Shown in pieces: positions 30,889 through 43,127 of a DNA stretch of 64,000 nt. This DNA is from Planctomycetota bacterium (GTDB lineage: Bacteria > Planctomycetota > PLA2 > JAEUHO01): contig CBDCWP010000030.1 of the NCBI GenBank assembly GCA_965223505.1, positions 32,001 through 96,000 on the forward strand, in the 5' to 3' direction. The translations under genes and the position numbers were made by a program. Under the pieces are notes generated by a model. The model made no database searches. It had not been told where the DNA came from and was given only the letters and a program-made list of their open reading frames with translations. Position 1 is the stretch's first letter. The number at the start of each line of letters is the position of its first letter.

Positions 30889-31043
30889 CAATTGGGTCCG
30901 AGCCCCACCCGATCGACCGGACGGGGCCGCACCGCTGAGGGCTTTCGGAGTTCTCGCAAATCGGGGTTGCGGGGCGCTCAACCAGGGAGATCATGGAACC
31001 GAGCACCAGGGGGGTGCATAACTCGGCGACCGGAGGTGCGTTC

Positions 31044-33398
31044 ATGTCCCCCCTGCGACTCACTCGACTTCGTTTTCTCGTTCTCACCGCGCTCGCGGCG
31101 CTCGCCGTCGGCGCCTGCGGCGGCGGCGGAGGAGGCGGCGGCGGCGGTGGCGGCGGCTCTCCGGGCATCCCGACGGGATTCTGGCTGACGCCCCAGCAAG
31201 GCGCGGCCGCCGTCGTCGGCACCCTGCTGAACGTGGTCTACACCGCGGACGACGACACCACCGCGCAGGTGCAGATCATCGCGGACGGCGACCAGAACCT
31301 GGCCACGACCGGCGACCAGGTCGTGCTGTTCGGCCCCGTCAACGATCCGAACGGCGCCAACCAGAACGCGATGCTCGACACCAGCCTGCTGCCCGGCGTG
31401 GGCGCGTACACCCTGTTCCTGGAGCTGGACGACAGCACGAACCCGGTCGTCCAGGTCACCCTGCCGCAGCCGCTGGTCGTATACCGCCCCATGGCCGGCG
31501 TCAGCAGCCCGCGCGCCAACCGCTACGGCGTGGTCGGACAGTTCGTCGTGTTCACACGCGGCGAAGCGGAGGACTCGAACGCGGGGCAGGTGCTGAACAG
31601 CGACGGTGACACCGGCGACGGGGTGATCTCGGTGTTCGACACCCAGTCGGGGATCGTGGTCAACAGCGGGATCTCCGCCGACGTGACGGCGGGCGCGGTC
31701 GCCGGTGAACCGCGCGTGATGGTCGCCCTCTCGGGCTTTCTTGCCTGGCTGACGCGCGAGGCCGACGAAGGCGAGATCAACAACGACGGCGACGGGATTC
31801 CCAACGACACGATGGTCTCGTACTTCGCGCCGTTCGTGCCCAGCACGCCCGTGACCAACGTGTTCGGCGGGGCACGCGCCATCGTGAGCGCCTCCACGAA
31901 CCGGCTCGTCGTCGCGTTGAGCGAAGCGGACGAAGGACCGGCCGGCACCGACCAGAACGGCGACCTCGATCAGGCGGACACGGTCTTCGCCTACATCGAC
32001 CTGCAATCGCCGGCGACGAACCAGGCACAGTACGTGATCATCCCGCGCGCATCGGTGCCAGGCAGCACCGTGTTCGCCGACGATCAGGGCCTGGCGTGCG
32101 CGATGCTCGACTCCGAGGCGGACAACGTCGGCGGCGCCAACGCCGATCCGAACGGGGACGGCGACATGGTCGACACCGAGCTGCTCGTCCTCGACCTCTC
32201 GTTCCCGGGCGGCGGCCCGCCGAACATCTTCGGCTGGGCAGGAACGCAGGCGGGACCGATGCCGCCCGCTCAGCCGCCGTCGCCCGTGGATCCGAACGCC
32301 GCGTTCGCGACGAGTGCGTCGGACACGCTCGTCGCGTACTACGTAGACGAGACGGCCGTCGGGGTGGGTCTCGATCAGAACGGCGACGGCGACGCGATCG
32401 ACCTCGTGCCGGCGTACTGGAACTTCGCGATCCAGAACGAGGTGCGCCTGGCACTCGCCCCCGGTGTCCCTGCCGGCTCGCTCAGCGCGCGCCTCGGTGT
32501 CGGATCGCCGCAAGCGATGGTCACCGACGTGGGTCGGTTGTTCTTCACCGCGAACGAACAGGGACGCGCCGGCGTCGCGCTCGGGAGCAACAACGACGGC
32601 GACGGCGGTACGGACACGCAGATCCTCTACTGGGCCGACACGACGGTGCCCGCGCAGCCGTTCCTGCCCGCCACGCCGGTCGCGCCGGGACTGCCGGGCG
32701 CGGGCGGCGCGCTGACGGCGCTTGCGCTGGACGGCGGCGGTTCCGTGAGGGCGCTGACACCCGGCTGGCTGGCCGTGATCGTCAATGAGGGCGCCAACGG
32801 CAACCTCGACATCAACGGCAACGGCAACGTCGGCGACATGGCGTATCTGTTGATCGATACCGCCCAATCGCCCCCGGTCGTGCACGTCCCCGCGGTGGCC
32901 GGCGGCAACACCGGTCTCGCGCCGTCGGACTCGACGATTCTCGCGAGCGGCGGGAACATCCCGATCACCGGCGTCGCGAACAATCAGGGCGTCGTGCTGC
33001 GACTGACGGAAGCACAGAACGGCAACCTGGACGGAGACGGCAACGTCAACGAGATCCTGCTGGCGTTCGTCGACTTCAGCACGCCCGGCACGGCGACCGT
33101 GCTGGATGCCGGCGGCGACTACTGCACCATCCGCAACGTCGACATCGCCATCACCGCGAACGAGGCGTACACGAACTCGAACTACAACAACGACGGCGAC
33201 CAAACGGACTTCCTGCTGCGGATCCTCACGACACAAGGTGTGGTCGTCGAGCCGGGCACGCCGTGCGCGCAACGGTCGATTCCCGCCGCCGACACGGGTG
33301 CGTTCTGGGCGTATCTGCGCGACGAGGTGCTGGAAGGTGTCTCGCTCAACGGCGACAGCGACACCCTCGACCTCGTGCTGGCGATCTGGATGCCCTAG
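31044..33398 (+). CDS. Large lipoprotein with poly-Gly linker and about 10 DxNGDGDxxD Ca-binding-like repeats
   Basis: GGAGG RBS; lipobox VGAC followed by 13 Gly; repeats such as DQNGDLDQAD, DPNGDGDMVD, DQNGDGDAID, NLDGDGNVNE, SLNGDSDTLD. Confidence 0.8.
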   Translation: MSPLRLTRLRFLVLTALAALAVGACGGGGGGGGGGGGGSPGIPTGFWLTPQQGAAAVVGTLLNVVYTADDDTTAQVQIIADGDQNLATTGDQVVLFGPVNDPNGANQNAMLDTSLLPGVGAYTLFLELDDSTNPVVQVTLPQPLVVYRPMAGVSSPRANRYGVVGQFVVFTRGEAEDSNAGQVLNSDGDTGDGVISVFDTQSGIVVNSGISADVTAGAVAGEPRVMVALSGFLAWLTREADEGEINNDGDGIPNDTMVSYFAPFVPSTPVTNVFGGARAIVSASTNRLVVALSEADEGPAGTDQNGDLDQADTVFAYIDLQSPATNQAQYVIIPRASVPGSTVFADDQGLACAMLDSEADNVGGANADPNGDGDMVDTELLVLDLSFPGGGPPNIFGWAGTQAGPMPPAQPPSPVDPNAAFATSASDTLVAYYVDETAVGVGLDQNGDGDAIDLVPAYWNFAIQNEVRLALAPGVPAGSLSARLGVGSPQAMVTDVGRLFFTANEQGRAGVALGSNNDGDGGTDTQILYWADTTVPAQPFLPATPVAPGLPGAGGALTALALDGGGSVRALTPGWLAVIVNEGANGNLDINGNGNVGDMAYLLIDTAQSPPVVHVPAVAGGNTGLAPSDSTILASGGNIPITGVANNQGVVLRLTEAQNGNLDGDGNVNEILLAFVDFSTPGTATVLDAGGDYCTIRNVDIAITANEAYTNSNYNNDGDQTDFLLRILTTQGVVVEPGTPCAQRSIPAADTGAFWAYLRDEVLEGVSLNGDSDTLDLVLAIWMP

Positions 33399-34114
33399 AC
33401 GTCGGGCGCCTTGCAGGCCGGCGCGGTGTAACCCCACCACGCGATCAGCGCGAGACCGGCGCAGCCGATCCAGAAGCCCGGTTCGAACTGCGCGAAGGCG
33501 TACTCGCAGAGCGCCCCGTTGGTCGGGAACGCGCCGTGCCACTCGCGCAGAACGCTCGCCGGTAGCGTCGCCGCGTGCATGAGCGCGAGGAGCGCCTGCG
33601 CACCGATCGTCGCTTCGAAGGCGTTCAGTCGACGTTGCGCCTTCCGCCGGTAGAGCAAGACGGCTACGACCACACCGTAGGTGAGCGCGGTCTCGATGCG
33701 CCCGCCCCAACCCGGCAGGAAGCTGCGATAGTCACTGCTCAGGTAGAACGCCTCGAGAACGGCCATGCCCAGCGTGACCAGGATCAGCAACACGTTTGCG
33801 AGCCTGGGACGCCGCCGGGCGATCAAGAGTCCGATCACCCAGATGGGCAGCAGCAGGTGCGTGTAGACCGGCCGGCGCGTCCACAACGCCTCGCGCGGCG
33901 TGAAGTCGTGCGACAGATCCTGGATCGCGCTGACGATCTCGCCGGCCGGCACGCGCATGGGACCGGGCGGACCGAAGAGGATCACGCGCTCGTTCTCGAT
34001 GCGGTTGCCGTGCTCGTCGTAGGGCGCGCCTTCGCGGAACGCGTACGCCGGCAAGAACGTGTTCGCGGTGAACGCCAGAAGGCCGAGCACGAGCAGGATG
34101 CGGCGCCACGTCAT
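33395..34114 (-). CDS. Hypothetical integral membrane protein
   Basis: ATG 34114 (MTWRRILLVLG), several hydrophobic helices, 11 nt downstream of the ABC fusion gene. Confidence 0.7.
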   Translation of the reverse strand: MTWRRILLVLGLLAFTANTFLPAYAFREGAPYDEHGNRIENERVILFGPPGPMRVPAGEIVSAIQDLSHDFTPREALWTRRPVYTHLLLPIWVIGLLIARRRPRLANVLLILVTLGMAVLEAFYLSSDYRSFLPGWGGRIETALTYGVVVAVLLYRRKAQRRLNAFEATIGAQALLALMHAATLPASVLREWHGAFPTNGALCEYAFAQFEPGFWIGCAGLALIAWWGYTAPACKAPDV

Positions 34115-34125
34115 GGGTGCGGGTG

Positions 34126-35667
34126 CTAGAACTCCATGAACGCGAACGCCGCGTGGATGGCGAGCACCAGGATCAGCGCCCGCAGCAGGGTGTGGTGAAT
34201 GCCCTTGACGACCTCGTTGGGATAGCGCTTCGGCGCCGTCCCGATGCGATAGGCAACCAGTGCGACGCCCAGTGCGCAACAACTGACCTTGGCGAAGAGC
34301 CATCCCACGTCCGCACCGTGCAATTGGTCCCCATACGCCTCGTGGAAGTAGCGCGCCGAGTAGCCCGGATGGGTCCCGAGGAACACGACCATCGACGTCG
34401 CGTACGAGAGCACCTGTGCCAGGGCCGTCGCAGCCCACGTCGCGACCAGGAGTCCCGTCGCGGTCGGAAGCAGCAGGTGCCGTCGCAGCGGCACCCGCAG
34501 CAGGTGCAGCGCGTCCACCTGTCGCGTCAAGCTCATGTGGCCGAGGTGAGCGGCGACCGCCGCGCCCAGCTTCGCTGCGAGCAGGACCGAGACCATCAAC
34601 GGCACACTGACGCGCGTGTAGATCAGACCGAGGGCGGCCACGATGTCCTCTTGGATCAGAGGTTCGGCGTACTGCCGCTGCGGCATGCGCTCGAAGATGA
34701 AGTACGTGCCGGTGAACGCGGCGAGCACCGCGCTGATTCCGATGAACGCGCCGACGGACGGCGCGACGTCGCGGCGCAGCGCCTTGCGGATGCGGGGCCC
34801 GTCCAGCGCATGGAACAGCCGCGCCCACGCCCAGGGCAAGAACACGAAGGCGCCGGCGTCGAGCAGGACGTCGACGGTCCCGGTCGCGAGAGCGCGCCAA
34901 CCCCGGGCACAACGCGCGACGAACGACGGCCGAACCTGCGGCGCCGCTTCGTCCCCTTCGGCGGTCGACTCGAGCGCGTGGCGAAGCGTTTCGAAGGTCT
35001 CGACGCCGGGCGGCAACACCTGGATGCGCCGCTCGGAAGGATCGATGAACAGCACGACGTCGGCCCAGTCCGCGAACGACTCGTAGTCATGCGTGATGAC
35101 GAGACTTCCGCGAGAGTGGTTCTCCTCGATGGCCTCGACGACCTGGGCGCGCGCTGCGGGATCCAGCCCCGTCGTGGGTTCGTCGTAGACGAGTACGCCG
35201 GCGCCGCGCAGCAGCGTTCGCGCGATGGCGACCCGCATCTGCTCGCCGCCGGAACACTCGGTGACGGGACGCTCGAGGTGTTGGAGCCGCAACCGCGCGG
35301 CCACGTCCTTGCGCCGCGCTTCGTTCTCGTCACCGAACATCAGGTTCTGATCGACGGTCAGGTCGTCGAACAGGCCGAGTGCGTTGAGCTGGAACACGGC
35401 GCCCATGCGTGCGTCGCGCGCCTCGGGGCCTGCGCCGAGAAGCTCGGCGCCGTCCAGCAGGATCGAGCCGGACACGTCGAGCTGCGGACTCGCAGGGCCC
35501 GCAAACCCGAGTAGCAGGCTGCAGAACAGGGACTTGCCCGAGCCGGACGTCCCCACGAGCAGCACGCGACGGCCCTCGGAGAGCTCGAAGCTCGTCGACT
35601 CGAGCAGCGTTCGACCACGCGCCTTGACCGCGAGGTCGACGACGCGCAAGAGCGTCGGGTCCGCCAT
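34126..35667 (-). CDS. ABC ATPase (MlaF-like) fused to an MlaE-type permease
   Basis: Walker A GTSGSGKS, signature CSGGE, Walker B VLVYDE, ITHD; C-terminal AAKLGAAVAAHLGHMSLTRQVDALHLLRVPLRRHLLLP (MlaE-like). Confidence 0.85.
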   Translation of the reverse strand: MADPTLLRVVDLAVKARGRTLLESTSFELSEGRRVLLVGTSGSGKSLFCSLLLGFAGPASPQLDVSGSILLDGAELLGAGPEARDARMGAVFQLNALGLFDDLTVDQNLMFGDENEARRKDVAARLRLQHLERPVTECSGGEQMRVAIARTLLRGAGVLVYDEPTTGLDPAARAQVVEAIEENHSRGSLVITHDYESFADWADVVLFIDPSERRIQVLPPGVETFETLRHALESTAEGDEAAPQVRPSFVARCARGWRALATGTVDVLLDAGAFVFLPWAWARLFHALDGPRIRKALRRDVAPSVGAFIGISAVLAAFTGTYFIFERMPQRQYAEPLIQEDIVAALGLIYTRVSVPLMVSVLLAAKLGAAVAAHLGHMSLTRQVDALHLLRVPLRRHLLLPTATGLLVATWAATALAQVLSYATSMVVFLGTHPGYSARYFHEAYGDQLHGADVGWLFAKVSCCALGVALVAYRIGTAPKRYPNEVVKGIHHTLLRALILVLAIHAAFAFMEF

Positions 35668-36707
35668 CAGTTCGGGTCCGCCATGGGACGTTCGATCAGG
35701 ACGAGCGCGGTCTTCTTGTCGAGCAGCGTCGCCCGCAGCATCGCGGCGAAACGGATGCGCAGTCCGCCGCTCGGTCCGCGGACGACCTCTTCGACGGCCA
35801 TGCGCAGAAGCGACTCGCCTTCGTCCTCGATCGCGTCCTGCTTGCTTGCGTAGACCGGATCGAGCAGCTCGTCCTTGGCCGCGTCGAACAGCTCGGACTT
35901 CACCCACGCGCTGACCTCGGGCACGTGGCTCTTGAGCCCCCGCGCGATGGCCCGCAGAACGCGGGCCTGGTTGACGCTCCACCACGCCGTCGCCGCCTTC
36001 GTCGCCACCGGCATCACCTGCCGCTTGATGCCGCGCTCGTCCCCGCGCACGACCTTCCAGAGCAAGCCGACACGGTCGAGCAGATCGAAGTGCCGGTCCA
36101 CGGCGCGCGCGACGGCGTCCGCGAGCTCGTTGAGCAGCGGCTCCACCTCCTGCATGACCGAAGACCCCATGGCCTTGACCAGCTTGCTCGACTCGGTGTC
36201 CTTGGTCGGATCGATGCGATCGAGGAACGCAGGGAGATTGCGCTCGACTTCGGGATAGAGCTCCTCGTCCCACAAGCGCTCGAGCCGCCGGACGAGCTCC
36301 CGCCCGACACGCTCGGCCGTCTCGGGCGGCACGGCGGTGTGAAACGCGTCCATCATCCCGCGCTTGGGCGGAACCACCCGCACCCGCCACGGCCCTGCCG
36401 GATCTTCGCCGGCGGCGAACCGAACGCGCAGGCGTCCGTCGTCCACCGCGACGACGTGCGCGACGGGCCGCGCCTCGCCGTCGGGCTCGACGAAGAAGAC
36501 GGGCGCGCCGACGTCGACGCCCTTCGTCGTGTCGACCGGCGTGAGCAGATCGTCGTCGCGCTCGGCGCTCAGCCCGCTCAGGAGCTCCGCGGTGATCCGT
36601 TCGGCAGGCCGTGCGACGGAAGGAGACGCGAGGAGCAGGACGAGGGCGAGCATCGCGCCCGCGAGGATGCCGCTGCCGAGCCAAGCCTTGAGTTGCGGGT
36701 TGTTCAC
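35667..36707 (-). CDS. Membrane-anchored protein with a degenerate MCE/MlaD-like segment and helical C-terminus
   Basis: N-terminal TM; GVDVGAPVF...PVAHVVAV resembles the MCE GLxxGxPV...VGxV motif; coupled to the MlaFE fusion. Confidence 0.55.
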   Translation of the reverse strand: MNNPQLKAWLGSGILAGAMLALVLLLASPSVARPAERITAELLSGLSAERDDDLLTPVDTTKGVDVGAPVFFVEPDGEARPVAHVVAVDDGRLRVRFAAGEDPAGPWRVRVVPPKRGMMDAFHTAVPPETAERVGRELVRRLERLWDEELYPEVERNLPAFLDRIDPTKDTESSKLVKAMGSSVMQEVEPLLNELADAVARAVDRHFDLLDRVGLLWKVVRGDERGIKRQVMPVATKAATAWWSVNQARVLRAIARGLKSHVPEVSAWVKSELFDAAKDELLDPVYASKQDAIEDEGESLLRMAVEEVVRGPSGGLRIRFAAMLRATLLDKKTALVLIERPMADPN

Positions 36708-36769
36708 GGTGACCTCGGACGGCCGGGAGGCGCGATTCTACGGGACGTCCCGGCGGCGGGTCGGCGAGA

Positions 36770-37366
36770 TCACGCGTACGGGGCGACGCCCTCGCGCAGA
36801 AGCGCCTGTAGCGCCGTTTCGTGCGTCTCGATCAGCGCGTTCGGCCGCCGGTCGAGCACGACCCGGCCGTCCAGATCCCGGACGACGAACCCCGTGACGC
36901 AGCGCCGGTCCACGTGCACGCTGAAGTCGGTCGCACCCTGGTCGAGCAGCGCCTCGTAGACGGCGAGCCGGTCGCGCTTGGCGGCGAAGACCTCCATCGG
37001 GCCGTCGACGGCGGCGGCCTCCCTCGCCCAGTGCCGCAGCGCGCCCACGTAGTCCTCGGTGTCGGGCAGGGACTGGATCGAGAGTGTGAGTCGCCGCGCG
37101 AAGCGGTCGTAGAGCTGCGTGAACGCTTCGGCACGCAGGGACGCGACCTCGCGCTCCGCCTCCAGGCGCGCGGCGTCCTTCGCCGCCTCGCCGCGCACGC
37201 GACCGAGGTTCTTTGCCGCCTCCGAGAGCTCGCGCACGTGGTCTTCCGCGTCGATCACGAGACGGCGCGCCTCGTTGACGGCCTGATCCTCGGCACGTCG
37301 GCTGCCGCGGTCGGCATCTTCGAGGATGATGTCGACGAGCGCATGGAACGCGGCGTCATGCAACAT
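36770..37366 (-). CDS. V/A-type ATPase subunit E-like protein
   Basis: 198 aa; N-terminal LVDIILEDA coiled coil; C-terminal GFVV...GRVVLD. Confidence 0.65.
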   Translation of the reverse strand: MLHDAAFHALVDIILEDADRGSRRAEDQAVNEARRLVIDAEDHVRELSEAAKNLGRVRGEAAKDAARLEAEREVASLRAEAFTQLYDRFARRLTLSIQSLPDTEDYVGALRHWAREAAAVDGPMEVFAAKRDRLAVYEALLDQGATDFSVHVDRRCVTGFVVRDLDGRVVLDRRPNALIETHETALQALLREGVAPYA

Positions 37367-39278
37367 GGGTTCCCCTCTCCCGGCTCGGCCCGCGGCGCAC
37401 GCGGCGCCGGAACGGCTCGAACGGCTGCGTGAGCTCGCGTCCCCCCAAAGACGTGTCGTAGGGCACGCCGATCGCCACGTGCGCCGCGTCAGCGACCACG
37501 GCGAGCACCCCCACGACGAGGGCGACCGGTACCACGAGCAGCGCGACGGCGCCGGCGTCGGCCCATGCGGCGAAGCCGTACTCGAACAACATCACCGACG
37601 CGCCCCCGACCGCCACGAGCCGCAGCACGCCGACGAGATCGAGGCAGAAGCGCGTCACGAACGCGCGCGCTCCCTCCAGAACGAACACCGCGACGGCGAC
37701 GAGCGGCACGAGGATCCACGCCCACGCGACCGCCGGTACGGCCTCGCCCACGACCGCCGCCGCGAACCCCGCAATCACCGCGTAGCGCAACGTCGTCAGC
37801 AGCGCCGCGCGCGCACGCGCGGCCCGGCCGCCGCGCACCGCGCGAAGCGCGAGCACGGCGCCGTACAGCGCGAACGCGCCCGCGAGGAGGCCGATCACCG
37901 CGAGCACGCCGGCGAACGGCTGCAAGAGAGCCGGCAACGCGCCGGCGCCGAGGTCGAGCGTGTCCACGACGCCCCACCCCTCACCAAACCACGCCGCGCC
38001 GGCATCGCCGAGCGCGCGGCCGATCAGAAGCCCCGCCGCCAACGCGGCGAGGCCGCCGGCTTGCGCCATGATCGCGGTGTGCCGGCGGGGCGAGCCGCGC
38101 CGGGCACGGACGCCGAGCAACGCGCCCGCGATCATCAGCAGCAGGCCGCCGGCCGCGTCGGCCCAAGCCAGGCCGACGGCGACGGGCGCGAAGACGGCGA
38201 GCACGCTTGCGACGCCGACGTCGCCGAAGCGCGACGGCCGCAGCCCTTCGAGCGCGGCGAACGGAACGGCGGCGACGGTGCGCGGAAGCGTCGGGGCGTC
38301 GTCGGCCTCGGCCAGCGGCCGGATCACGATGTGCTTGCCGAACACCTTCGTCATGTGCTCGGCGAGCGGTTCGCCGTCTTCGCGTCGTACGAACACGCGC
38401 GCGGCAGCGACGTGTTCCGTTGCGGCCAGCCGTCCGCGCGCCTCGCGGCGCCCTTCGGCGTCTTCGAGCGAGTCGAGCAGCTGGCGCGCGCGCGCGCCGT
38501 CTTCGCGTACGCGCAGCGTCAAGGCGGCGCGAGCGGCGCCGACCTCGTGCTGCGCGCGGCTGCGCGCTTCGAGCGCTTCCCGCAGCGCGTCTTCGATCAG
38601 CGCGCCTTGCATCGTGGCGGGGAAATCGAACGCGCGCGCGCCGACCGCTTCGGCGATCTGTTCGACGCCGTCGCTCGTGACGGTCGCGTCCGCGGCGCGC
38701 AGCACGAAGACGTGGCTCTTGTCGCCGTCCCGCCGGAGCGGGTCGAGCCGGGCGCGGCGCAGACGCCGGCCCAGTTGCCGCGCCGCGCGTGGCTCGGTGG
38801 GCAGCGCGAGCGCGCGACCGTTGACGGTCGGCTCGTCGGCGGCCTGGAGGGCCTCGACGCCGGCCAGGACGGCGTCGGCGAACTCGTACGACGCATCGGC
38901 GCGCCGCAGCGCCTCGAGCTCGACGTGGATCCGACCGGCGAGCGTGACGGCCTCGTCGCGCAAGGCGAGCAGGTCGGCCTCCCCGATGCCGCCGGGGGCC
39001 ATCGTCCAGTCGGGGCGCCGGCCGGGCGGCTCGTCGACGGCAGTCGGCGGCAGCACGCGCTCGACCGCCTGGAGTGACCGGCCGGCTTCGCTGCGAATCA
39101 GCTCGATGTCCTGCTCGTGCGCGTCGGGCCGCGGGCGTCCGATGCCCGCCTCGCCCTCGAGCCCGTGCAGCGCGTCGCCAAGATGGCAGGTGCCCAGATC
39201 CTGGAGGGCGGCGAGCCAGTCCTCGACGGACGCGCGCGGGCCGAGGATCTCGTAGTGCTGGAAGGGGGCATCGATCAT
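37356..39278 (-). CDS. Divergent V/A-type ATPase subunit I (a)-like protein
   Basis: 640 aa; N-terminal LQDLGTCHL, soluble domain, APTL, then PSRFGD..VLAVFAPVAVGLAWADAAGGLLL and GVLRLVAVG resembling subunit I motifs. Confidence 0.7.
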   Translation of the reverse strand: MIDAPFQHYEILGPRASVEDWLAALQDLGTCHLGDALHGLEGEAGIGRPRPDAHEQDIELIRSEAGRSLQAVERVLPPTAVDEPPGRRPDWTMAPGGIGEADLLALRDEAVTLAGRIHVELEALRRADASYEFADAVLAGVEALQAADEPTVNGRALALPTEPRAARQLGRRLRRARLDPLRRDGDKSHVFVLRAADATVTSDGVEQIAEAVGARAFDFPATMQGALIEDALREALEARSRAQHEVGAARAALTLRVREDGARARQLLDSLEDAEGRREARGRLAATEHVAAARVFVRREDGEPLAEHMTKVFGKHIVIRPLAEADDAPTLPRTVAAVPFAALEGLRPSRFGDVGVASVLAVFAPVAVGLAWADAAGGLLLMIAGALLGVRARRGSPRRHTAIMAQAGGLAALAAGLLIGRALGDAGAAWFGEGWGVVDTLDLGAGALPALLQPFAGVLAVIGLLAGAFALYGAVLALRAVRGGRAARARAALLTTLRYAVIAGFAAAVVGEAVPAVAWAWILVPLVAVAVFVLEGARAFVTRFCLDLVGVLRLVAVGGASVMLFEYGFAAWADAGAVALLVVPVALVVGVLAVVADAAHVAIGVPYDTSLGGRELTQPFEPFRRRVRRGPSRERGTHVA

Positions 39279-39658
39279 TCCGCGACGACCTCCGGCGCCT
39301 CGGCGGGTGCGTCGCGCTCGCCGCACAGCAACGCCATGGCGGCGACGAGTAGCTCGTCCATGCGCGACTCCGCGTCGTCGATCCAACGTCGGACGGCGAG
39401 CCGGGCCTCGCTCACGGCGTCGACGCCGGCGGCCTCGACCTGGCGCAGAGCCTCGCGTTCGCCTTCGATGACGATGTCCCGCAGCTTCTGCTCACCCTCC
39501 TCGCGGATGCGCTTGGCCTCGGCGCGGGCCGCCGCCAGACGCGCCTGGGCGTCGCCCTGCGCCCCCTGCAGCCGCTCACGCGCCCAGGCTTCGACGGCGA
39601 GGAACGCAGGCAGGGCGGAGCGCCCCGGTGTGACGGGCGGGAGGTTGGGTCGCGTCAT
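39275..39658 (-). CDS. V/A-type ATPase subunit H/G-like coiled-coil protein
   Basis: 127-aa Ala/Glu/Arg-rich helical protein whose stop overlaps the subunit I-like start. Confidence 0.55.
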   Translation of the reverse strand: MTRPNLPPVTPGRSALPAFLAVEAWARERLQGAQGDAQARLAAARAEAKRIREEGEQKLRDIVIEGEREALRQVEAAGVDAVSEARLAVRRWIDDAESRMDELLVAAMALLCGERDAPAEAPEVVAE

Positions 39659-39791
39659 GGACGTGGAGCGTACCGGCGGAGCAGGACAGCGTCGGACCGT
39701 AGCGCGCGGCAGCCGACGAAGGCCCCTTGCTCACCGCGCACCCGCCACGACGGCGATCCGGCCAGGCGCCGTCGAGCGGGACGAGCCGCCG

Positions 39792-40712
39792 CTAGCCGCC
39801 GGTGGCGTTCTTCTTCAGCCAGTCGACGAGCTGCTCGCGGACGGACGCGAACTTGCCGTTGACCTTCACGTCGACAGCCTTCAGCAGCGCCTCGACCTCC
39901 TTGCGCTTGTCGGCCGTGGAGCTGTCGTCGTCCTCGACGGCGAACTCGAAGGCGTAGCCGACGTCCTCGCTGATCGACGCCATGTGCGCGTCGATGTAGG
40001 CCGTCAGGCCCTTGCCGGGCTTCTTCGCGATCTTCAGGACCTCCACGAACGCCTCGAGGGCCTTGCGCCACTCCTCGTCGTCGATCGCCGCGAGGGCGAC
40101 CTCCATGTGCGGGAGCGCTTTTTCGAACTTCTTGAAGGTCAACGCTTCGCCCAGCTCCTTCTGAAGGGCTTCGGTCGCCTTCTGAATGCTCTTCGTGACG
40201 AACTGGTCCTTCTCCTCGATGCGGTGCACCTTGCCGTCGGGCGCGATCAGCCACGAGTTCGGGCAGAGCTCGACGAAGGGCACCACCGGCAGCGTCTCGT
40301 CACGAGAGGCATCGGTCTCGACCGCGATGTTGAGGTGGTCGCGGCACGTCAGACCGGGATAGAGCGGGCAGCGCTTGTTCTCGCCGGTCTGGTTCGCGAC
40401 CTCGATCTCTTCGTGCCCGAGCTCGTTGTGCGCAATCAACACGATCACGCTCTCTTCCGCCCACTTGATGAACGACTTGTTGGTCAGCACCGACCGGTAC
40501 TGGTTCGTGCAGCGGCCTCAGAAGTCCTTGTGACGGCTGAAGAAGATCGGCACGTTGCGAACGCGCGCCTCGACCATCGCCGCTTCGTAGCTCGTCATGT
40601 AGCGCAGGTGTGCGCCCTTCGGGTGCTCCTCCGCGAACGCGCCGCCGGCGAACAGGATCGCCGCCGCGATTCCGAGCCAGCAGACCGGCCCGGTCAGTCT
40701 TCGAATCCGCAT
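39792..40712 (-). CDS. Candidate exported thioredoxin-like selenoprotein B (U65-G-R-C), 306 aa
   Basis: GGAGG RBS, ATG 40712, signal peptide ending AFA; EARVRNVPIFFSRHKDF-TGA(40520-40518)-GRCTNQYRSVLTNKSFIKWAEESVIV continues in frame into track ORF 39792-40490. Confidence 0.88.
40485..40502 (-). promoter_or_regulatory. Bacterial SECIS-like hairpin of selenoprotein B
   Basis: mRNA CAGUACC-GGUC-GGUGCUG starting 15 nt after the UGA; G at the first loop position. Confidence 0.7.
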
Positions 40713-40735
40713 GTGACCTCCCGAGACGCCGGCCG

Positions 40736-41668
40736 TCACTTGGCCTTCGCCTCCTTGATCCACTTCTTGATGTCGTCGACCACCGGTAGGTATCCGCGTT
40801 TGAGACGCTTGCCGACGGCGGACTTGAGCTGACCGGCGGCCTTGATCTTGGCCTCCGCGTCGCCCTCACCCTCCTTGAGCTCCTCGAACGCCTCGACGAT
40901 CGCCTCGTTCAGATCGTCGAGCCGCTCCTTGACGATCTCCTTCATGCCGTCCGGCAGCTTCTTGGTGTCCTTCTCGACGTCCGCGTAGGCGGCCAATGCG
41001 GCCTTCCAGTCCATCGTCTCGATCGCCGCGTCGCCCGCGTCGAGCGATGCCACGTACGCCTTGTACTTCTTCATCGGAAGGTGCTTGAGCTTCAGCTTCT
41101 TCAGCCCGGCCTGGGCCATCTCGATCACCTTCTTCGGCTTCGTCTTGTAGGCGTTCGAGACGGTCTCGACCTCGCCGTTGGGCATGACGAACCAGCTCGT
41201 GGGCGTGCTGACCGGCTTCTTGATTTGCGGCAGGCCGGACGCAGACGTCAGCGCCGCGATCTCGTTGGCGATCCCGCGGTGGTCCTCGCACAGGAGACCG
41301 GGGTACTTCGGGCAGCCTTCGACCTTCTCACCGTTTTCGTCTTCGATCTGCGACGGGTGTTCTTCCGTCTCGTGGGCGATGGCCACGATCATGTTCTCGT
41401 TGGCCCACTCGACGAACCCGCCGTCTTGCAGCACCGAACTGTGCTGCGCCTCGCACGGGCCTCAGTTGTCCTTGTGCCAGACGACGTAGATCACGGCGTT
41501 GCGTGCCCGGGCTTCGTACACCGCGTCCTCGTAGGACTTCGCGTAGCGAAGGTGCGTCTCTTTCTCCTCCTTGGCGAGGCCGCTGCCGAGCGAACCGAAC
41601 ACGGCCGCCGCGGCGACGCAGAACAACGCGCAGGCGAAGCGGCGATGCCATGCAAGACGGTGGCTCAT
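40736..41668 (-). CDS. Candidate exported thioredoxin-like selenoprotein A (U69-G-P-C), 310 aa
   Basis: ATG 41668, signal peptide; EARARNAVIYVVWHKDN-TGA(41464-41462)-GPCEAQHSSVLQDGGFVEWANENMIV continues in frame into track ORF 40736-41434. Confidence 0.88.
41428..41447 (-). promoter_or_regulatory. Bacterial SECIS-like hairpin of selenoprotein A
   Basis: mRNA GCAGCAC-AGUUCG-GUGCUGC starting 14 nt after the UGA; perfect 7-bp stem; G at the second loop position. Confidence 0.72.
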
Positions 41669-41747
41669 GAGCGGACTCCGGGCACGAGGATCGCCGATGG
41701 GCGGCGCGGGCGCCAGGGGGCAGCCCCCGCCGGCCCCCGGCAGATAG

Positions 41748-41773
41748 GACGGTTGTCGCCCGAAGGGGGTTCC
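41748..41773 (-). promoter_or_regulatory. Possible ECF-sigma promoter (GGAAC-N17-CGTC)
   Basis: Minus strand GGAAC-CCCCTTCGGGCGACAAC-CGTC, about 80 nt upstream of ATG 41668. Confidence 0.45.
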
Positions 41774-41813
41774 ATCGGCCGCGGGCGGCCCGCCGAGGCT
41801 CGGTTTCGAGCGC

Positions 41814-43127
41814 CTAGCGCAGCGGGACGTCCTTGAGCACGACTTCGAGCTCCCCGTCCGACTCGCGGTCGAACCAGGTCACCCAGATCGCCTCCGGCTT
41901 GCCGATGCCCGCGCCGTAGGCCCGGCCGGTGAGGTTCAAGGTGCCGTCGGCGCTGTGCGAGCGCCCCCCCATCACGTGCAGCCGCTGTTCACGGCCGCCT
42001 GCCCAGCGCACGAAGATCTGCGCCGTCGTTCGGGCGAGCTGCTTGGGGAGTACGGCCACCAGCTCGACGACCCAGGACCCGGTCTGGTTCTCCACCGGCT
42101 CGAAGGAGCGCAGCTCCACCGACCCTTCGGTGCCGGGCTCGACGTCCTTCCCGTCCTTGGTGCGGCAGCGCGGCAGCTTCTCGATGTCGTCGAACCGGAC
42201 GGTGTGCGCCACATGGCGGATGCGCATCGGGAACTTCACGACGAGCTTCGCGAGCTTCTCGTGAAAGACGTCCGTCGTCGGTTGGAAGGTCACATTGACC
42301 GAGCGCGAGGATTGCATCGGTGAGACGCCGTACGTGACGCGCCCTTTGGTGGTCGCTCGAAACGCGTTTCCTGCGGTGTCCTCGGCCGCGGTCACCGTCG
42401 GCGTGCTGAGCTGCGAGACCGCGACGCTGGGAACCCACCAGACGTCGAGGGTCAACGAGTAGTGCGGCTTGGCCGTGCTGGTGAGCGCGCGCGTGCTGGT
42501 GACCTCGGTGACCCGCACGAGCACGGGTCCGGCCGCCGCCTGCGGCACGACGACGGCCTCCGCATCGCGGTGGACGAGACGCGCGTGCCCGGCGCCGTCG
42601 AACGGCCCTTTCATCGAGAGGTCCGCCCGCTTCAGCAACATGCGCAGCGCTTCGAAGTAGGGCTCGTTCTCGATCTCGCCCCCGCTCTCGGGCGGCGTCC
42701 AGTCGTCGGGCATCTCGAAGCGGCCACCGAACTGACGCCCCAGGTCCTTGAGCGTCGCGTCGGAAGCGGGCAGCGTCACGCGGCCGATCGCCGCCAGGTC
42801 GCCCGGCGCGACCGGCGCGGTCTTCGTCGGCTCGCCGCCGAGCAGCAGGCGCACCGTGCGACGCACCTCCGGGTCCTCGTCGTCGGCGACGGCTTCGAGG
42901 AGGTCGCGCGCCTTCGTGCCATAGCGCTGCAGTCCGTGACGGGCCGTCTGACGCGTCGCGAACGAATCGGAGCGCAGATCCTCGATCCACTGCTTGACGT
43001 GCGTGCGCAGTGCCTCGCCCTGGAGCGCGGGCGGGATCTGCGGCTCGTCGGCCCGCGCGTCCGGTATGCGAACCGGCGCCGAGAGGGCGCACGCCAGGAG
43101 AAACAGAAGTCCGGCGCGGCGGTTCAT
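41814..43127 (-). CDS. Secreted hypothetical protein with an N-terminal HEAT-like repeat
   Basis: Signal peptide; IEDLRSDSFATRQTARHGL...DEDPEVRR; beta-rich C-terminus. Confidence 0.7.
   Translation of the reverse strand: MNRRAGLLFLLACALSAPVRIPDARADEPQIPPALQGEALRTHVKQWIEDLRSDSFATRQTARHGLQRYGTKARDLLEAVADDEDPEVRRTVRLLLGGEPTKTAPVAPGDLAAIGRVTLPASDATLKDLGRQFGGRFEMPDDWTPPESGGEIENEPYFEALRMLLKRADLSMKGPFDGAGHARLVHRDAEAVVVPQAAAGPVLVRVTEVTSTRALTSTAKPHYSLTLDVWWVPSVAVSQLSTPTVTAAEDTAGNAFRATTKGRVTYGVSPMQSSRSVNVTFQPTTDVFHEKLAKLVVKFPMRIRHVAHTVRFDDIEKLPRCRTKDGKDVEPGTEGSVELRSFEPVENQTGSWVVELVAVLPKQLARTTAQIFVRWAGGREQRLHVMGGRSHSADGTLNLTGRAYGAGIGKPEAIWVTWFDRESDGELEVVLKDVPLR

What the first reader, a model, noticed from the sequence alone, without database searches (positions are those of the whole stretch)
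36770..39658. Stator-only, highly divergent V/A-ATPase module (H/G-I-E) with no rotor or catalytic subunits
Seen in sequence: three overlapping genes resembling subunits H/G, I and E. The I-like gene overlaps the E-like gene directly, so no K gene lies between them, and no C, F, A, B or D gene follows. The subunit I motifs are eroded to Ala-rich variants, yet the Arg of the SYxRL-type helix appears retained (GVLRLVAVG). A complete F-type operon lies about 10 kb away. Established: prokaryotic V/A operons normally include K, A, B and D. Inference: either a split operon or a repurposed membrane stator/scaffold complex.
Basis: partly seen in the sequence, partly recalled or inferred. Interest (0 to 1): 0.7.

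Follow-up and report, generated by a model that had tools for sequence, protein, structure and literature searches.

The report
Rotor-less V-ATPase stator gene trio
One uncultured family of Planctomycetota keeps only the stationary parts (membrane subunit I and stalk subunits E and probably G) of a rotary V/A-type ATPase, with no rotor or ATP-splitting head in the genome, so these parts probably now do some other, unknown job.

Summary
Three translationally coupled minus-strand genes (39658-36770) encode very divergent homologues of V/A-ATPase subunits G/H (probable), I and E.

- **I:** profile-profile probability 99.9%, E 7e-33 over 599 columns. The AF2 model (pLDDT 89) matches subunit a/I chains at Foldseek ranks 1-41.
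- **E:** probability 98.1%, E 7e-14 against 28 canonical E proteins.
- **G:** only weak hits, plus its position and size.

Canonical Planctomycetota operons read G-I-K-E-C-F-A-B-D. Here K and C-F-A-B-D are missing. Six related genomes (89-96% complete) hold no V-type A/B or K, and the five searched hold no D or C. They hold only the F-type enzyme and two Rho paralogues. "Split operon" is therefore rejected.

The trio is not decaying. The I gene was found in 18 of 40 genomes of the order, all in one family. Pairwise dN/dS is 0.24-0.63, and the TM7 Arg is kept in 26 of 28 proteins.

It travels with an MCE-like protein and a fused MlaF-MlaE transporter. That pair also occurs without the trio in another family, so coupling is unproven.

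Function is unknown. My best reading is a maintained, rotor-less stator complex. I found no description in print (three searches).

The parts
39275..39658 (-). G/H-like peripheral-stalk subunit, 127 aa. It has a conserved Pro-rich N-terminal motif (MDxPxLPPVxPGRSALPAFLAVE) followed by a charged helical region.
   Evidence: PF16999 V-ATPase_G_2 scores E 0.0014, 19.7 bits, below the cut-off of 28. 4 of 12 orthologues hit it at E<=0.1. The best PDB profile hits are V-ATPase G chains and F-type b chains, E 0.11-0.9. hhalign against 4 canonical G proteins is not significant (probability 4%). The gene sits directly upstream of I with an ATGA overlap, as G does in canonical operons.
37356..39278 (-). 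Subunit I (a)-like membrane stator protein, 640 aa: cytoplasmic N-terminal arm (about 1-340) plus eight long membrane helices (356-603).
   Evidence: hhalign against 16 canonical V_ATPase_I proteins: probability 99.9%, E 7.2e-33, 599 columns. AF2 model pLDDT 89.2. Foldseek ranks 1-41 are all V-ATPase a/I chains, best 6r0z_N at E 1.3e-14. VIA-align Z 17.7 (rmsd 12.0, 555 aligned, 8eas_a) and Z 16.4 (rmsd 14.1, 510 aligned, 6r0z_N). PDB profile hit to T. thermophilus subunit I, E 8.5e-6.
37620..37622 (-). Codon of Arg553 in membrane helix 7 (motif LDLVGVLRLVAVGG).
   Evidence: It aligns with the invariant Arg of the canonical SYxRL motif. It is kept in 26 of 28 family members. The acidic residue six positions before it (D/E547) is kept in 28 of 28. 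The codon position was computed from the start at 39278.
36770..37366 (-). Subunit E-like peripheral-stalk protein, 198 aa: N-terminal long helix plus a C-terminal globular domain with the conserved motif GFVVRDLDGRT.
   Evidence: hhalign against 28 canonical Planctomycetota E proteins: probability 98.1%, E 6.7e-14, 194 columns, end to end. PF01991 scores E 0.016, 15 bits, below the cut-off of 24.2. PDB profile best hit is T. thermophilus subunit E, E 0.25, colinear 9-174 to 3-165. The fold was not predicted.
35667..36707 (-). Context, membership uncertain: TM + small beta-barrel (MCE-like) + long helical protein, 346 aa. It lies 62 nt downstream of E.
   Evidence: AF2 model pLDDT 83.7. The best fold hits are MlaD/MCE proteins: 6zy2_D at E 0.042; 5uw8_A at Z 7.6, rmsd 3.1, 76 aligned; 6kz3_A at Z 7.3. 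It co-occurs with the I-like gene in 17 genomes of the 40 searched.
34126..35667 (-). Context, membership uncertain: fused MlaF (ABC ATPase) - MlaE (permease) protein, 513 aa. Its start overlaps the stop of the previous gene by 1 nt.
   Evidence: Pfam ABC_tran E 1.6e-24 and MlaE E 7.5e-24, both over cut-off. It is the second, divergent MlaE copy of the genome. Full-length matches occur in exactly the 18 genomes that have the MCE-like gene.
33395..34114 (-). Context, membership uncertain: 239-aa multi-pass membrane protein with an invariant Glu (E121) inside a predicted membrane helix.
   Evidence: No Pfam family. Orthologues follow the MlaFE gene in 8 of the 14 distinct related loci. Alignment of 6 sequences gives the invariant residues E121, E141, E167 and H180.

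Best explanation
The three genes encode a real, selectively maintained stator sub-complex of a V/A-type rotary ATPase: membrane subunit I (a) and peripheral-stalk subunits E and, probably, G/H.

They descend from an ordinary G-I-K-E-C-F-A-B-D operon. That operon lost the rotor-ring gene K and the C, F, A, B and D genes, and no other copies exist in the genome.

Most likely subunit I sits in the cytoplasmic membrane with E-G stalks bound to its cytoplasmic arm. The complex then works without rotor and without ATPase head, as a membrane anchor or scaffold. It may keep a residual ion or charge site around the retained helix-7 Arg and the acidic residue six positions before it. It is not an ATP synthase or pump.

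Shown: homology of I and E, the predicted fold of I, gene order and coupling, absence of the other subunits, and conservation across one Planctomycetota family.

Inferred: that I, E and G still assemble, and everything about function.
For: **Identity**
- I: hhalign probability 99.9%, E 7.2e-33 over 599 columns.
- I: Foldseek ranks 1-41 are all subunit a/I chains. VIA Z is 16.4-17.7 over 510-555 residues.
- I: 17 of 17 weak full-length phmmer hits tested carry PF01496 over cut-off.
- E: hhalign probability 98.1%, E 6.7e-14 over 194 columns.
- G: 4 of 12 orthologues hit PF16999 at E<=0.1. Even the two canonical G proteins of this phylum that I tested score 25.8 bits or nothing.

**Origin**
- Two canonical Planctomycetota operons read G-I-K-E-C-F-A-B-D by Pfam.
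- The I-like proteins form one clade on a long stem, apart from 19 canonical I proteins.

**Absence of partners**
- PF00006: only F1 alpha, F1 beta and two Rho-like genes in the own genome and in each of 5 relatives.
- PF00137: one hit over cut-off per genome, always beside the F-type genes, in 6 of 6 genomes.
- PF01813: 0 of 5 genomes over cut-off. PF01992: 0 of 5.
- PF01991: 0 of 10 genomes of the family and 0 of 5 of the sister family, against 50 of 301 in the phylum sample.

**Maintenance**
- The I gene is found in 18 of 40 genomes of the order, all in family f1. The G-I-E order is kept wherever all three were seen, in 11 of 14 distinct loci.
- The start/stop overlaps are read directly from the sequence.
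- NG86 dN/dS is 0.24-0.63 in 21 of 21 gene-pair comparisons.
- 42 columns are invariant across 28 I-like proteins. R553 is kept in 26 of 28 and D/E547 in 28 of 28.
Against: - No function, partner, transcript or protein has been observed.
- All genomes are metagenome bins, 89-96% complete, so the absence of the other subunits is strong but not absolute.
- The proteins evolve fast (40-51% identity to the window protein within one family). dN/dS up to 0.63 allows relaxed constraint, although NG86 underestimates dS at this GC3.
- The module was not found in 11 of 28 other genomes of the same family, including all 3 of genus g9 and both of g245.
- One genome (G201) has an in-frame TGA in the I gene, and one (G301) has a shortened 574-aa frame.
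- The two earliest-branching family members lack the Arg.
- The canonical helix-8 motif (RLHxVEFxxKFY) is replaced.
- The identity of G is not proven.
- Binding among I, E and G was not tested.
Confidence: 0.6

Rival explanations
1. The stator works with the neighbouring MCE-like protein and fused MlaF-MlaE ABC transporter. For example, the E-G stalks or the I arm would hold or regulate the MlaF ATPase domains, or the I membrane domain would contact MlaE. This would make a lipid-transport machine with a borrowed stator.
For: - Gene order G-I-E-MCE-MlaFE is conserved. The MCE-like gene lies within 0.1-3.3 kb of E in all 11 loci that reach that far.
- Presence and absence agree. Of 40 genomes of the order, 17 have both the I-like and the MCE-like gene and 21 have neither. 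One has only a 29-residue I fragment, and one has the MCE-like gene at a contig edge.
- The fused MlaFE is found full length in exactly the 18 genomes with the MCE-like gene.
- MlaF is the only cytoplasmic ATPase domain encoded in the conserved block.
Against: - Adjacent genes are gained and lost together by single events, and all carriers are close kin, so the co-occurrence is weak evidence.
- A related MCE-like + fused MlaFE pair (29-30% identity) stands without any G, I or E gene nearby in the three loci read from another family, f54. None of the 7 f54 genomes with an MCE-like match has an I-like match.
- A 62-nt gap separates E from the MCE-like gene, whereas the G-I-E genes overlap one another.
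- In two lineages, 1.8-3.3 kb are inserted between E and the MCE-like gene.
- No known Mla or MCE system uses such parts (my own recall).
Confidence: 0.15
2. The trio is a slowly decaying relic of a lost V/A-ATPase with no present function.
For: - Fast evolution and dN/dS up to 0.63.
- Not found in several genera of the family.
- In-frame TGA in G201 and a shortened frame in G301.
- Loss of the Arg in 2 of 28 proteins, and loss of the canonical helix-8 motif.
- Single-sequence scores are below all curated cut-offs.
Against: - Frames are open and full length in 14 of the 18 genomes with an I-like match. The other four are G148 (split over two contig ends), G201, G301 and the G310 fragment.
- All three genes are kept together with preserved start/stop overlaps.
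- dN/dS is below 1 in 21 of 21 comparisons at dS 0.7-1.1.
- There are 42 invariant columns in I, with strongly conserved blocks in the I arm, the E C-terminal domain and the G N-terminus.
- GC3 is 0.84-0.87, as in neighbouring genes.
- A neutral relic would not survive divergence to 40% identity.
Confidence: 0.1
3. The V-type stator has been recruited to the F-type enzyme. Subunit I would contact the single F-type c-ring through its retained Arg, and the E-G stalks would contact F1, as an alternative stator, brake or leak.
For: - The only c-ring gene in each of 6 genomes is the F-type one.
- The helix-7 Arg, whose canonical role is to face a ring carboxylate, is kept in 26 of 28 proteins.
- The F-type operon lies 10-30 kb from the module in all 6 genomes examined.
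Against: - The F-type operon is complete, with its own a, b and delta stator parts.
- The same F-type and Rho gene set is present in 5 related genomes without the module.
- The linkage is plain family-wide synteny.
- No test of contact was made.
- No such hybrid is known (my own recall).
Confidence: 0.05
4. It is a split operon: K, A, B, D, C and F are encoded elsewhere and the enzyme is an ordinary V/A-ATPase.
For: The genomes are 89-96% complete bins, so some genes could be unassembled.
Against: - The same negative result holds in 6 independent bins for A/B and K, and in 5 for D and C.
- Control: canonical Planctomycetota A, B, D, C and K score 63-272 bits with the same models.
- The searches ring in the V-type control genomes.
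- I and E overlap by 11 nt where K should be.
Confidence: 0.03

Closest known systems
Stator of prokaryotic V/A-type ATPases: subunit I with two E-G peripheral stalks (Thermus thermophilus, PDB 6r0z, 6qum, 6ly9, 3v6i)
   Same: - Same three proteins in the same gene order, apart from the missing K.
- Full-length homology of I and E.
- Same two-domain predicted fold of I, with eight long membrane helices.
- Helix-7 Arg retained.
- N-terminal GD.G.G-type motif and C-terminal GG..PF.PF tail recognisable.
   Different: - No c-ring (K), no central stalk (D, F, C) and no A3B3 head in the genome.
- The canonical helix-8 motif is replaced by AHxAMGVPYD.
- G carries a new conserved Pro-rich N-terminus.
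- Scores are below all curated family cut-offs.
Solitary subunit I (a) paralogues in Proteobacteria, noted earlier in this scan (e1-746538, e1-2945429)
   Same: A V/A-ATPase membrane stator subunit encoded away from any ATPase operon.
   Different: According to those notes, which I did not check, they are single I genes without E or G. At least one sits in a genome that also has complete V/A operons. Here I is kept together with E and G, in genomes with no V/A-ATPase at all.
V1-free Vo sectors of eukaryotic V-ATPases (for example PDB 9bry, 6c6l, 8eas, listed)
   Same: A membrane a-subunit that exists without the ATPase head. The yeast Vo a-subunit is the best VIA match (Z 17.7).
   Different: Vo still contains the c-ring and subunit d and can re-bind V1. 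E and G leave with V1. Here the ring is absent and E and G are the parts retained. The biology of free Vo is from my own recall.
FliH / SctL stator proteins of flagellar and injectisome export ATPases
   Same: They are relatives of the E/b-type stalk proteins, used outside a rotary ATP synthase. The G-like protein gives weak NCBIfam hits to FliH (E 0.017) and SctL (E 0.13).
   Different: Those proteins hold a homologous hexameric ATPase (FliI/SctN). No such ATPase is encoded here, since PF00006 finds only F1 and Rho. There is also no subunit I counterpart in those systems.
MlaFEDB and MCE lipid transporters (PDB 6zy2, 6xbd, 8fed), for the neighbouring genes only
   Same: MlaE and ABC_tran domains are over cut-off. 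The neighbour has a TM + MCE-like beta-barrel.
   Different: - MlaF and MlaE are fused in one chain.
- The MCE-like protein has a long helical C-terminal part and no Pfam MCE hit.
- No MlaB, MlaC or MlaA was seen nearby.
- It is the second, divergent MlaE copy of the genome.

Membership tests
V/A-ATPase subunit I / a (Pfam PF01496 V_ATPase_I) | Score over the curated family cut-off | tested here: not met
   No PF01496 hit for the protein or anywhere in the genome at E<=1. The best NCBIfam subunit I model gives 21.9 bits against a cut-off of 777.
V/A-ATPase subunit I / a (Pfam PF01496 V_ATPase_I) | Full-length homology to family members | tested here: met
   hhalign of 28 I-like proteins against 16 PF01496-positive proteins: probability 99.9%, E 7.2e-33, 599 columns. 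PDB profile hit to T. thermophilus subunit I, E 8.5e-6.
V/A-ATPase subunit I / a (Pfam PF01496 V_ATPase_I) | Fold: cytoplasmic arm plus a C-terminal domain of eight membrane helices, the last two long | tested here: met
   Predicted model only, pLDDT 89.2, with helices 537-573 and 577-603. Foldseek ranks 1-41 are a/I chains. Z 17.7 (rmsd 12.0, 555 aligned) and Z 16.4 (rmsd 14.1, 510 aligned).
V/A-ATPase subunit I / a (Pfam PF01496 V_ATPase_I) | Essential Arg in membrane helix 7 | tested here: met
   R553 aligns to the invariant Arg of SYxRL. It is kept in 26 of 28 members and absent in P0032 and P0035.
V/A-ATPase subunit I / a (Pfam PF01496 V_ATPase_I) | Conserved helix-8 / C-terminal motif (invariant R, L, E, F, K, F in RLHxVEFxxKFY among the 16 canonical sequences) | tested here: not met
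   The region reads AHxAMGVPYDLSLGG. Only the following GG...PF.PF tail is recognisable.
V/A-ATPase subunit I / a (Pfam PF01496 V_ATPase_I) | Works against a K/c ring of its own enzyme | tested here: not met
   PF00137 finds only the F-type c gene in 6 of 6 genomes. I and E overlap where K lies in canonical operons.
V/A-ATPase subunit E (Pfam PF01991) | Score over the curated family cut-off | tested here: not met
   15 bits against a cut-off of 24.2. 1 of 14 orthologues hits at E<=0.1. The whole-genome search gives 0 of 10 in the family.
V/A-ATPase subunit E (Pfam PF01991) | End-to-end homology to family members | tested here: met
   hhalign of 14 E-like proteins against 28 PF01991-positive Planctomycetota E proteins: probability 98.1%, E 6.7e-14, 194 columns.
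V/A-ATPase subunit E (Pfam PF01991) | Fold: long N-terminal helix plus C-terminal alpha/beta domain, paired with G | not tested
The E-G pairing was not scored.
V/A-ATPase subunit G/H (Pfam PF16999 / PF03179) | Sequence membership | tested here: inconclusive
   - 19.7 bits against a cut-off of 28.
- 4 of 12 orthologues hit at E<=0.1.
- PDB profile best hit is a V-ATPase G chain, E 0.11.
- hhalign against 4 canonical G proteins: probability 4%.
- Atlas: 12 of 30 feature hits are clusters where 14% of members carry PF16999.
- Control: the two canonical G proteins of the phylum score 25.8 bits and nothing.
V/A-ATPase subunit G/H (Pfam PF16999 / PF03179) | Small helical protein encoded directly upstream of I | tested here: met
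   127 aa, with an ATGA overlap with I. Canonical operons have a 103-126-aa gene in the same place.
Complete V/A-type rotary ATPase | Catalytic A and B subunits | tested here: not met
   PF00006 gives 4 hits in each of 6 genomes. In the own genome they are F1 alpha, F1 beta and two Rho-like genes. The 5 relatives show the same score pattern. Canonical A and B score 236-272 bits.
Complete V/A-type rotary ATPase | Central stalk D and rotor-coupling C (d) | tested here: not met
   PF01813: 0 of 5 genomes over cut-off, with 3 sub-threshold hits inside frames of more than 1100 aa. PF01992: 0 of 5. PF01990 (subunit F) was not searched.
Mla / MCE ABC transporter (neighbouring genes only) | MlaE permease and ABC ATPase domains | tested here: met
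   PF02405 85 bits and PF00005 87.5 bits, both in one 513-aa chain.
Mla / MCE ABC transporter (neighbouring genes only) | MCE-domain protein | tested here: inconclusive
   No Pfam MCE hit. Predicted TM + beta-barrel 54-112. Best fold hits are MlaD/MCE proteins, but middling: Foldseek E 0.042; VIA Z 7.6, rmsd 3.1, 76 aligned for 5uw8_A.

The most novel reading that the evidence does not exclude
This would be the first rotor-less descendant of a rotary ATPase. Subunit I with its E-G stalks would have been taken over as a non-rotary membrane device. The retained helix-7 Arg, together with the conserved acidic residues D/E547 and D597, would form an ion or head-group site. The stalks would hold a new, unrelated partner, the prime candidate being the co-inherited MCE-like / fused MlaF-MlaE lipid transporter.
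Probability: 0.12. Interest if true: 0.85.

Novelty: new variant of a known kind. Interest (0 to 1): 0.6.

Why it matters
Rotary ATPases are seen as indivisible machines, in which the stator has meaning only because it holds a head against a turning rotor. A stator trio kept under selection in genomes that have neither rotor nor head would be a natural experiment in exaptation. It asks what subunit I and the E-G stalks can do on their own.

It could reveal an unknown activity of the a-subunit membrane domain, a question also debated for V1-free Vo in eukaryotes (my own recall).

It also matters for annotation. The three proteins escape every curated model, and pathway tools that did see them could wrongly infer a V-type ATPase.

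If the link to the neighbouring Mla-like transporter were real, it would add a new kind of accessory to lipid-transport systems in Planctomycetota, whose envelope biology is poorly understood.

Tried and rejected
1. **Complex prediction.** E-like + G-like + MlaF domain (residues 1-260 of the fusion), each with its alignment, MlaF as partner. The tool's verdict was "no answer", score 0.00 in two runs, and the controls were not folded. This is no evidence either way.
2. **Second Rho as a substitute hexameric ATPase.** Rejected. Five genomes without the module show the same PF00006 hit pattern: F1 alpha and beta (beta in two pieces in G308) plus two Rho-level hits.
3. **Single-sequence hhalign.** E-like and G-like profiles against one canonical E or G gave nothing. 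The E comparison became significant only against a 28-sequence profile.
4. **Canonical G profile.** Only 4 canonical G genes could be collected from 20 upstream regions plus two loci, and the comparison was not significant.
5. **Context of the most divergent members (P0032, P0035).** The metagenome scan with their alignment found no locus. So their gene context, which could separate the trio from the Mla-like genes, remains unknown.
6. **Expression.** No RNA holder was listed among the 4 runs returned.
7. **Promoter and terminator scan of 33000-42000.** 0 promoter-like sites, and 6 terminator-like sites against 4.0 expected. This is uninformative for the operon limits.
8. **Literature.** Three full-text searches (listings and abstract starts only, no paper opened) returned nothing on a stator-only V/A-ATPase module or on such genes in Planctomycetota. 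Subscription journals are not covered.
9. **The scan's own index by sequence.** No look-alike was found.

Full report
**What is there**

On the minus strand of the window lie three genes.
- 39275-39658, 127 aa.
- 37356-39278, 640 aa. The longest ORF starts at 39386.
- 36770-37366, 198 aa.

The ATG at 39278 overlaps the stop of the first gene as ATGA and has a GGAGG 12 nt upstream. Orthologues begin at the same place. The second and third genes overlap by 11 nt. Third-position GC is 0.84-0.87 in these frames, as in the neighbouring genes. The window is G000:C30:32001-96000 of a 5.15-Mb bin that is 92.5% complete.

**Identity of the three proteins**

Single-sequence scans give only sub-threshold hits.
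- G-like: PF16999 V-ATPase_G_2, E 0.0014.
- E-like: PF01991, E 0.016.
- I-like: nothing in Pfam, and an NCBIfam subunit I model at 21.9 bits.
- A whole-genome search with PF01496 finds nothing, not even this gene.

At profile level the picture is clear for I.
- phmmer against 1.84 billion representatives gives 57 hits at E<=0.001 and 33 at E<=1e-10.
- All 17 weak full-length hits that I scanned carry PF01496 over cut-off. The two most divergent family members carry nothing.
- hhalign of 28 family members against 16 of those canonical proteins gives probability 99.9%, E 7.2e-33 over 599 columns.
- The AlphaFold2 model has pLDDT 89.2.
- Foldseek ranks 1-41 against the PDB are all V-ATPase a/I chains, best 6r0z_N at E 1.3e-14.
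- VIA-align gives Z 17.7 (rmsd 12.0, 555 aligned, yeast Vo a) and Z 16.4 (rmsd 14.1, 510 aligned, T. thermophilus I). The first 39 rows are all a/I.
- The protein-language-model atlas agrees: 28 of 30 hits are PF01496 clusters.

For E, I collected 28 canonical E proteins from Planctomycetota genomes. hhalign gives probability 98.1%, E 6.7e-14 over 194 columns, end to end.

For G the evidence stays weak.
- 4 of 12 orthologues hit PF16999 at E<=0.1.
- The best PDB profile hits are V-ATPase G chains at E 0.11-0.6.
- hhalign against four canonical G proteins is not significant.
- A control helps here. The canonical G of one Planctomycetota operon has no Pfam hit at all, and that of another scores 25.8 bits, below the cut-off.
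- So I call G probable, on its position, size and composition.

**What is retained and what is lost in subunit I**

R553 in GVLRLVAVG aligns with the invariant Arg of the canonical SYxRL motif. It is kept in 26 of 28 family members. The acidic residue at 547 is kept in 28 of 28. The two proteins without the Arg are the earliest branch of the family.

The canonical helix-8 motif (RLHxVEFxxKFY in the 16 canonical sequences) is replaced by AHxAMGVPYD. The following GG..PF.PF tail is still recognisable.

The N-terminal lobe of the arm (LGPR..LD.WL..LQD.G.CHLADAL.GLEGE.GIGRP) is the most conserved block of the protein. The C-terminal domain of E (GFVVRDLDGRT) and a Pro-rich N-terminus of G are similarly conserved.

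**Are the missing subunits elsewhere?**

Two canonical operons from other Planctomycetota read G-I-K-E-C-F-A-B-D, with every gene except one G confirmed by Pfam. The trio is that operon without K and without C-F-A-B-D.

| Model | Result in own genome | Result in relatives with the module |
|---|---|---|
| PF00006 (A/B) | F1 alpha, F1 beta and two Rho-like genes | four hits each with the same score pattern, 5 of 5 genomes |
| PF00137 (K/c) | one hit over cut-off, the F-type c gene | one hit each, beside the F-type genes, 5 of 5 |
| PF01813 (D) | none over cut-off | none over cut-off, 4 of 4 |
| PF01992 (C/d) | none | none, 4 of 4 |

PF01991 finds canonical E in 50 of 301 sampled genomes of the phylum. 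It finds none in 10 genomes of this family and none in 5 of the sister family. The controls score 63-272 bits in canonical operons of the phylum. The "split operon" reading is therefore rejected, within the limits of bins that are 89-96% complete.

The F-type operon in the window is complete: atpI-like, a, c, b, delta, alpha, gamma, beta and epsilon.

**Distribution and selection**

The I-like family is small and confined.
- 21 clusters at 90% identity were found, named only "hypothetical protein" of Planctomycetota.
- 13 loci were found in named Planctomycetota bins.
- In a sample of 301 genomes of the phylum, the family is in the own genome and 7 of 10 others of family f1, and in 0 of 5 of f2. 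Three further weak matches are canonical subunit I genes.
- In 40 genomes of the order it is in 18, all in f1.
- It was not found in 11 of 28 other f1 genomes, among them all three of genus g9 and both of g245. So it was gained once and lost several times, or is simply unassembled in some bins.

Pairwise NG86 dN/dS is 0.24-0.63 for G, I and E in 21 of 21 comparisons, at dS 0.7-1.1. With GC3 near 0.9, dS is underestimated, so these values are upper bounds.

Blemishes exist. There is an in-frame TGA in the I gene of G201 and a shortened 574-aa frame in G301. Taken together this is a fast-evolving but maintained module, not a relic.

**Surroundings**

The conserved block reads as follows.
1. A HEAT-repeat exported protein.
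2. One or two thioredoxin-like genes with an in-frame TGA.
3. G, I and E.
4. A 346-aa TM + MCE-like + helical protein.
5. A fused MlaF-MlaE.
6. A 239-aa membrane protein.
7. An 801-aa exported protein, on the opposite strand.

The 346-aa protein's model has pLDDT 83.7. It shows one membrane helix, a small beta-barrel and long helices. Its best fold matches are MlaD and other MCE proteins, at middling scores.

Within the order, 17 genomes have both the I-like and the MCE-like gene and 21 have neither. The two discordant cases are a 29-residue I fragment (G310) and an MCE-like gene at a contig edge (G249). The fused MlaFE is full length in exactly the 18 genomes with the MCE-like gene.

This looks like coupling, but the genes are neighbours in close kin, so one event removes them all. 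Moreover, 7 genomes of another family (f54) have an MCE-like match. In the three loci I read, it is followed by a fused MlaFE, with no G, I or E nearby, and those genomes have no I-like match. The transporter can thus stand alone. Whether the stator can is unknown, because I could not obtain the context of the most divergent I-like proteins.

**How it most likely works**

I commit to a maintained, rotor-less I-E-G complex in the cytoplasmic membrane (0.6). Assembly is inferred from the joint conservation of the I arm, the E head and the G N-terminus. What the complex holds or conducts is open.

The rivals are:
- a link to the Mla-like transporter (0.15);
- a relic (0.1);
- recruitment to the F-type ring or head (0.05);
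- a split operon (0.03).

**Comparison with what is known**

In descent, the trio is the stator of a prokaryotic V/A-ATPase. It fails the curated cut-offs and lacks the defining partners, so I do not file it as a V/A-ATPase.

Earlier notes of this scan describe solitary subunit I paralogues in Proteobacteria (not checked by me). Those lack E and G. Three literature searches found no description of such a module (listings only).

I rate it a new variant of a known kind, with interest 0.6. It would surprise a rotary-ATPase specialist, but it has no functional evidence and a narrow, uncultured host range.

Noticed in passing
window 39792-40763 and 40736-41668, minus strand: Two tandem thioredoxin-like genes are each interrupted by one in-frame TGA, directly before GxxC (HKDF-TGA-GRC and HKDN-TGA-GPC). 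Read with TGA=U, they give 323- and 311-aa proteins with signal-like N-termini and weak Thioredoxin_7 hits. The scan has already reported this as exported UxxC selenoproteins (e1-7670539). Homologues of the thioredoxin-like gene lie upstream of G in 8 of 14 distinct related loci.
   Followed up: partly
window 34126-36707, minus strand; L084-L086: A divergent MCE-like protein with a long helical tail is paired with MlaF and MlaE fused in one chain. This is the second MlaE copy of the genome. The canonical copy is at G000:C1:5416-6045. A related pair (29-30% identity for MlaFE) occurs in Planctomycetota family f54, followed by an ECF-sigma-like gene.
   Followed up: partly
window 33395-34114, minus strand: A 239-aa multi-pass membrane protein with no Pfam family carries invariant Glu residues (E121 inside a predicted membrane helix, plus E141 and E167) and H180 in 6 aligned orthologues. 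BLAST did not find it in 6 of 14 related loci.
   Followed up: partly
L003 (G000:C38:42696-46310) and L004 (G000:C4:11749-15363): The genome has two Rho-like genes, of 449 and 631 aa, the longer with a Lys/Ala-rich N-terminal extension. The same pair of PF00006 hits at about 80-95 bits appears in all 10 other genomes of the order examined, with or without the module.
   Followed up: partly
G201:C79:157-2028 (= L037) and G301:C7:531815-533122: In one relative the I-like gene carries an in-frame TGA and is split into two ORFs. In another it lies in a shortened 574-aa frame whose matches skip profile positions about 129-252 and 502-542. I did not examine whether the TGA is an error, a pseudogene or a recoded codon.
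   Followed up: no
window 28498-30837 and 30993-33398, plus strand: Two large proteins of 779 and 801 aa have no Pfam family. The second has a lipoprotein-like N-terminus and Gly/Asp-rich repeats, and is conserved in synteny next to the block in 8 of 14 distinct related loci.
   Followed up: no
L024:7937-8248 and L023:10925-11305: The canonical G/H subunits of two ordinary Planctomycetota V/A operons are themselves missed (no hit) or sub-threshold (25.8 bits against a cut-off of 28) with Pfam. Annotation pipelines will therefore often leave this subunit unnamed in the phylum.
   Followed up: no
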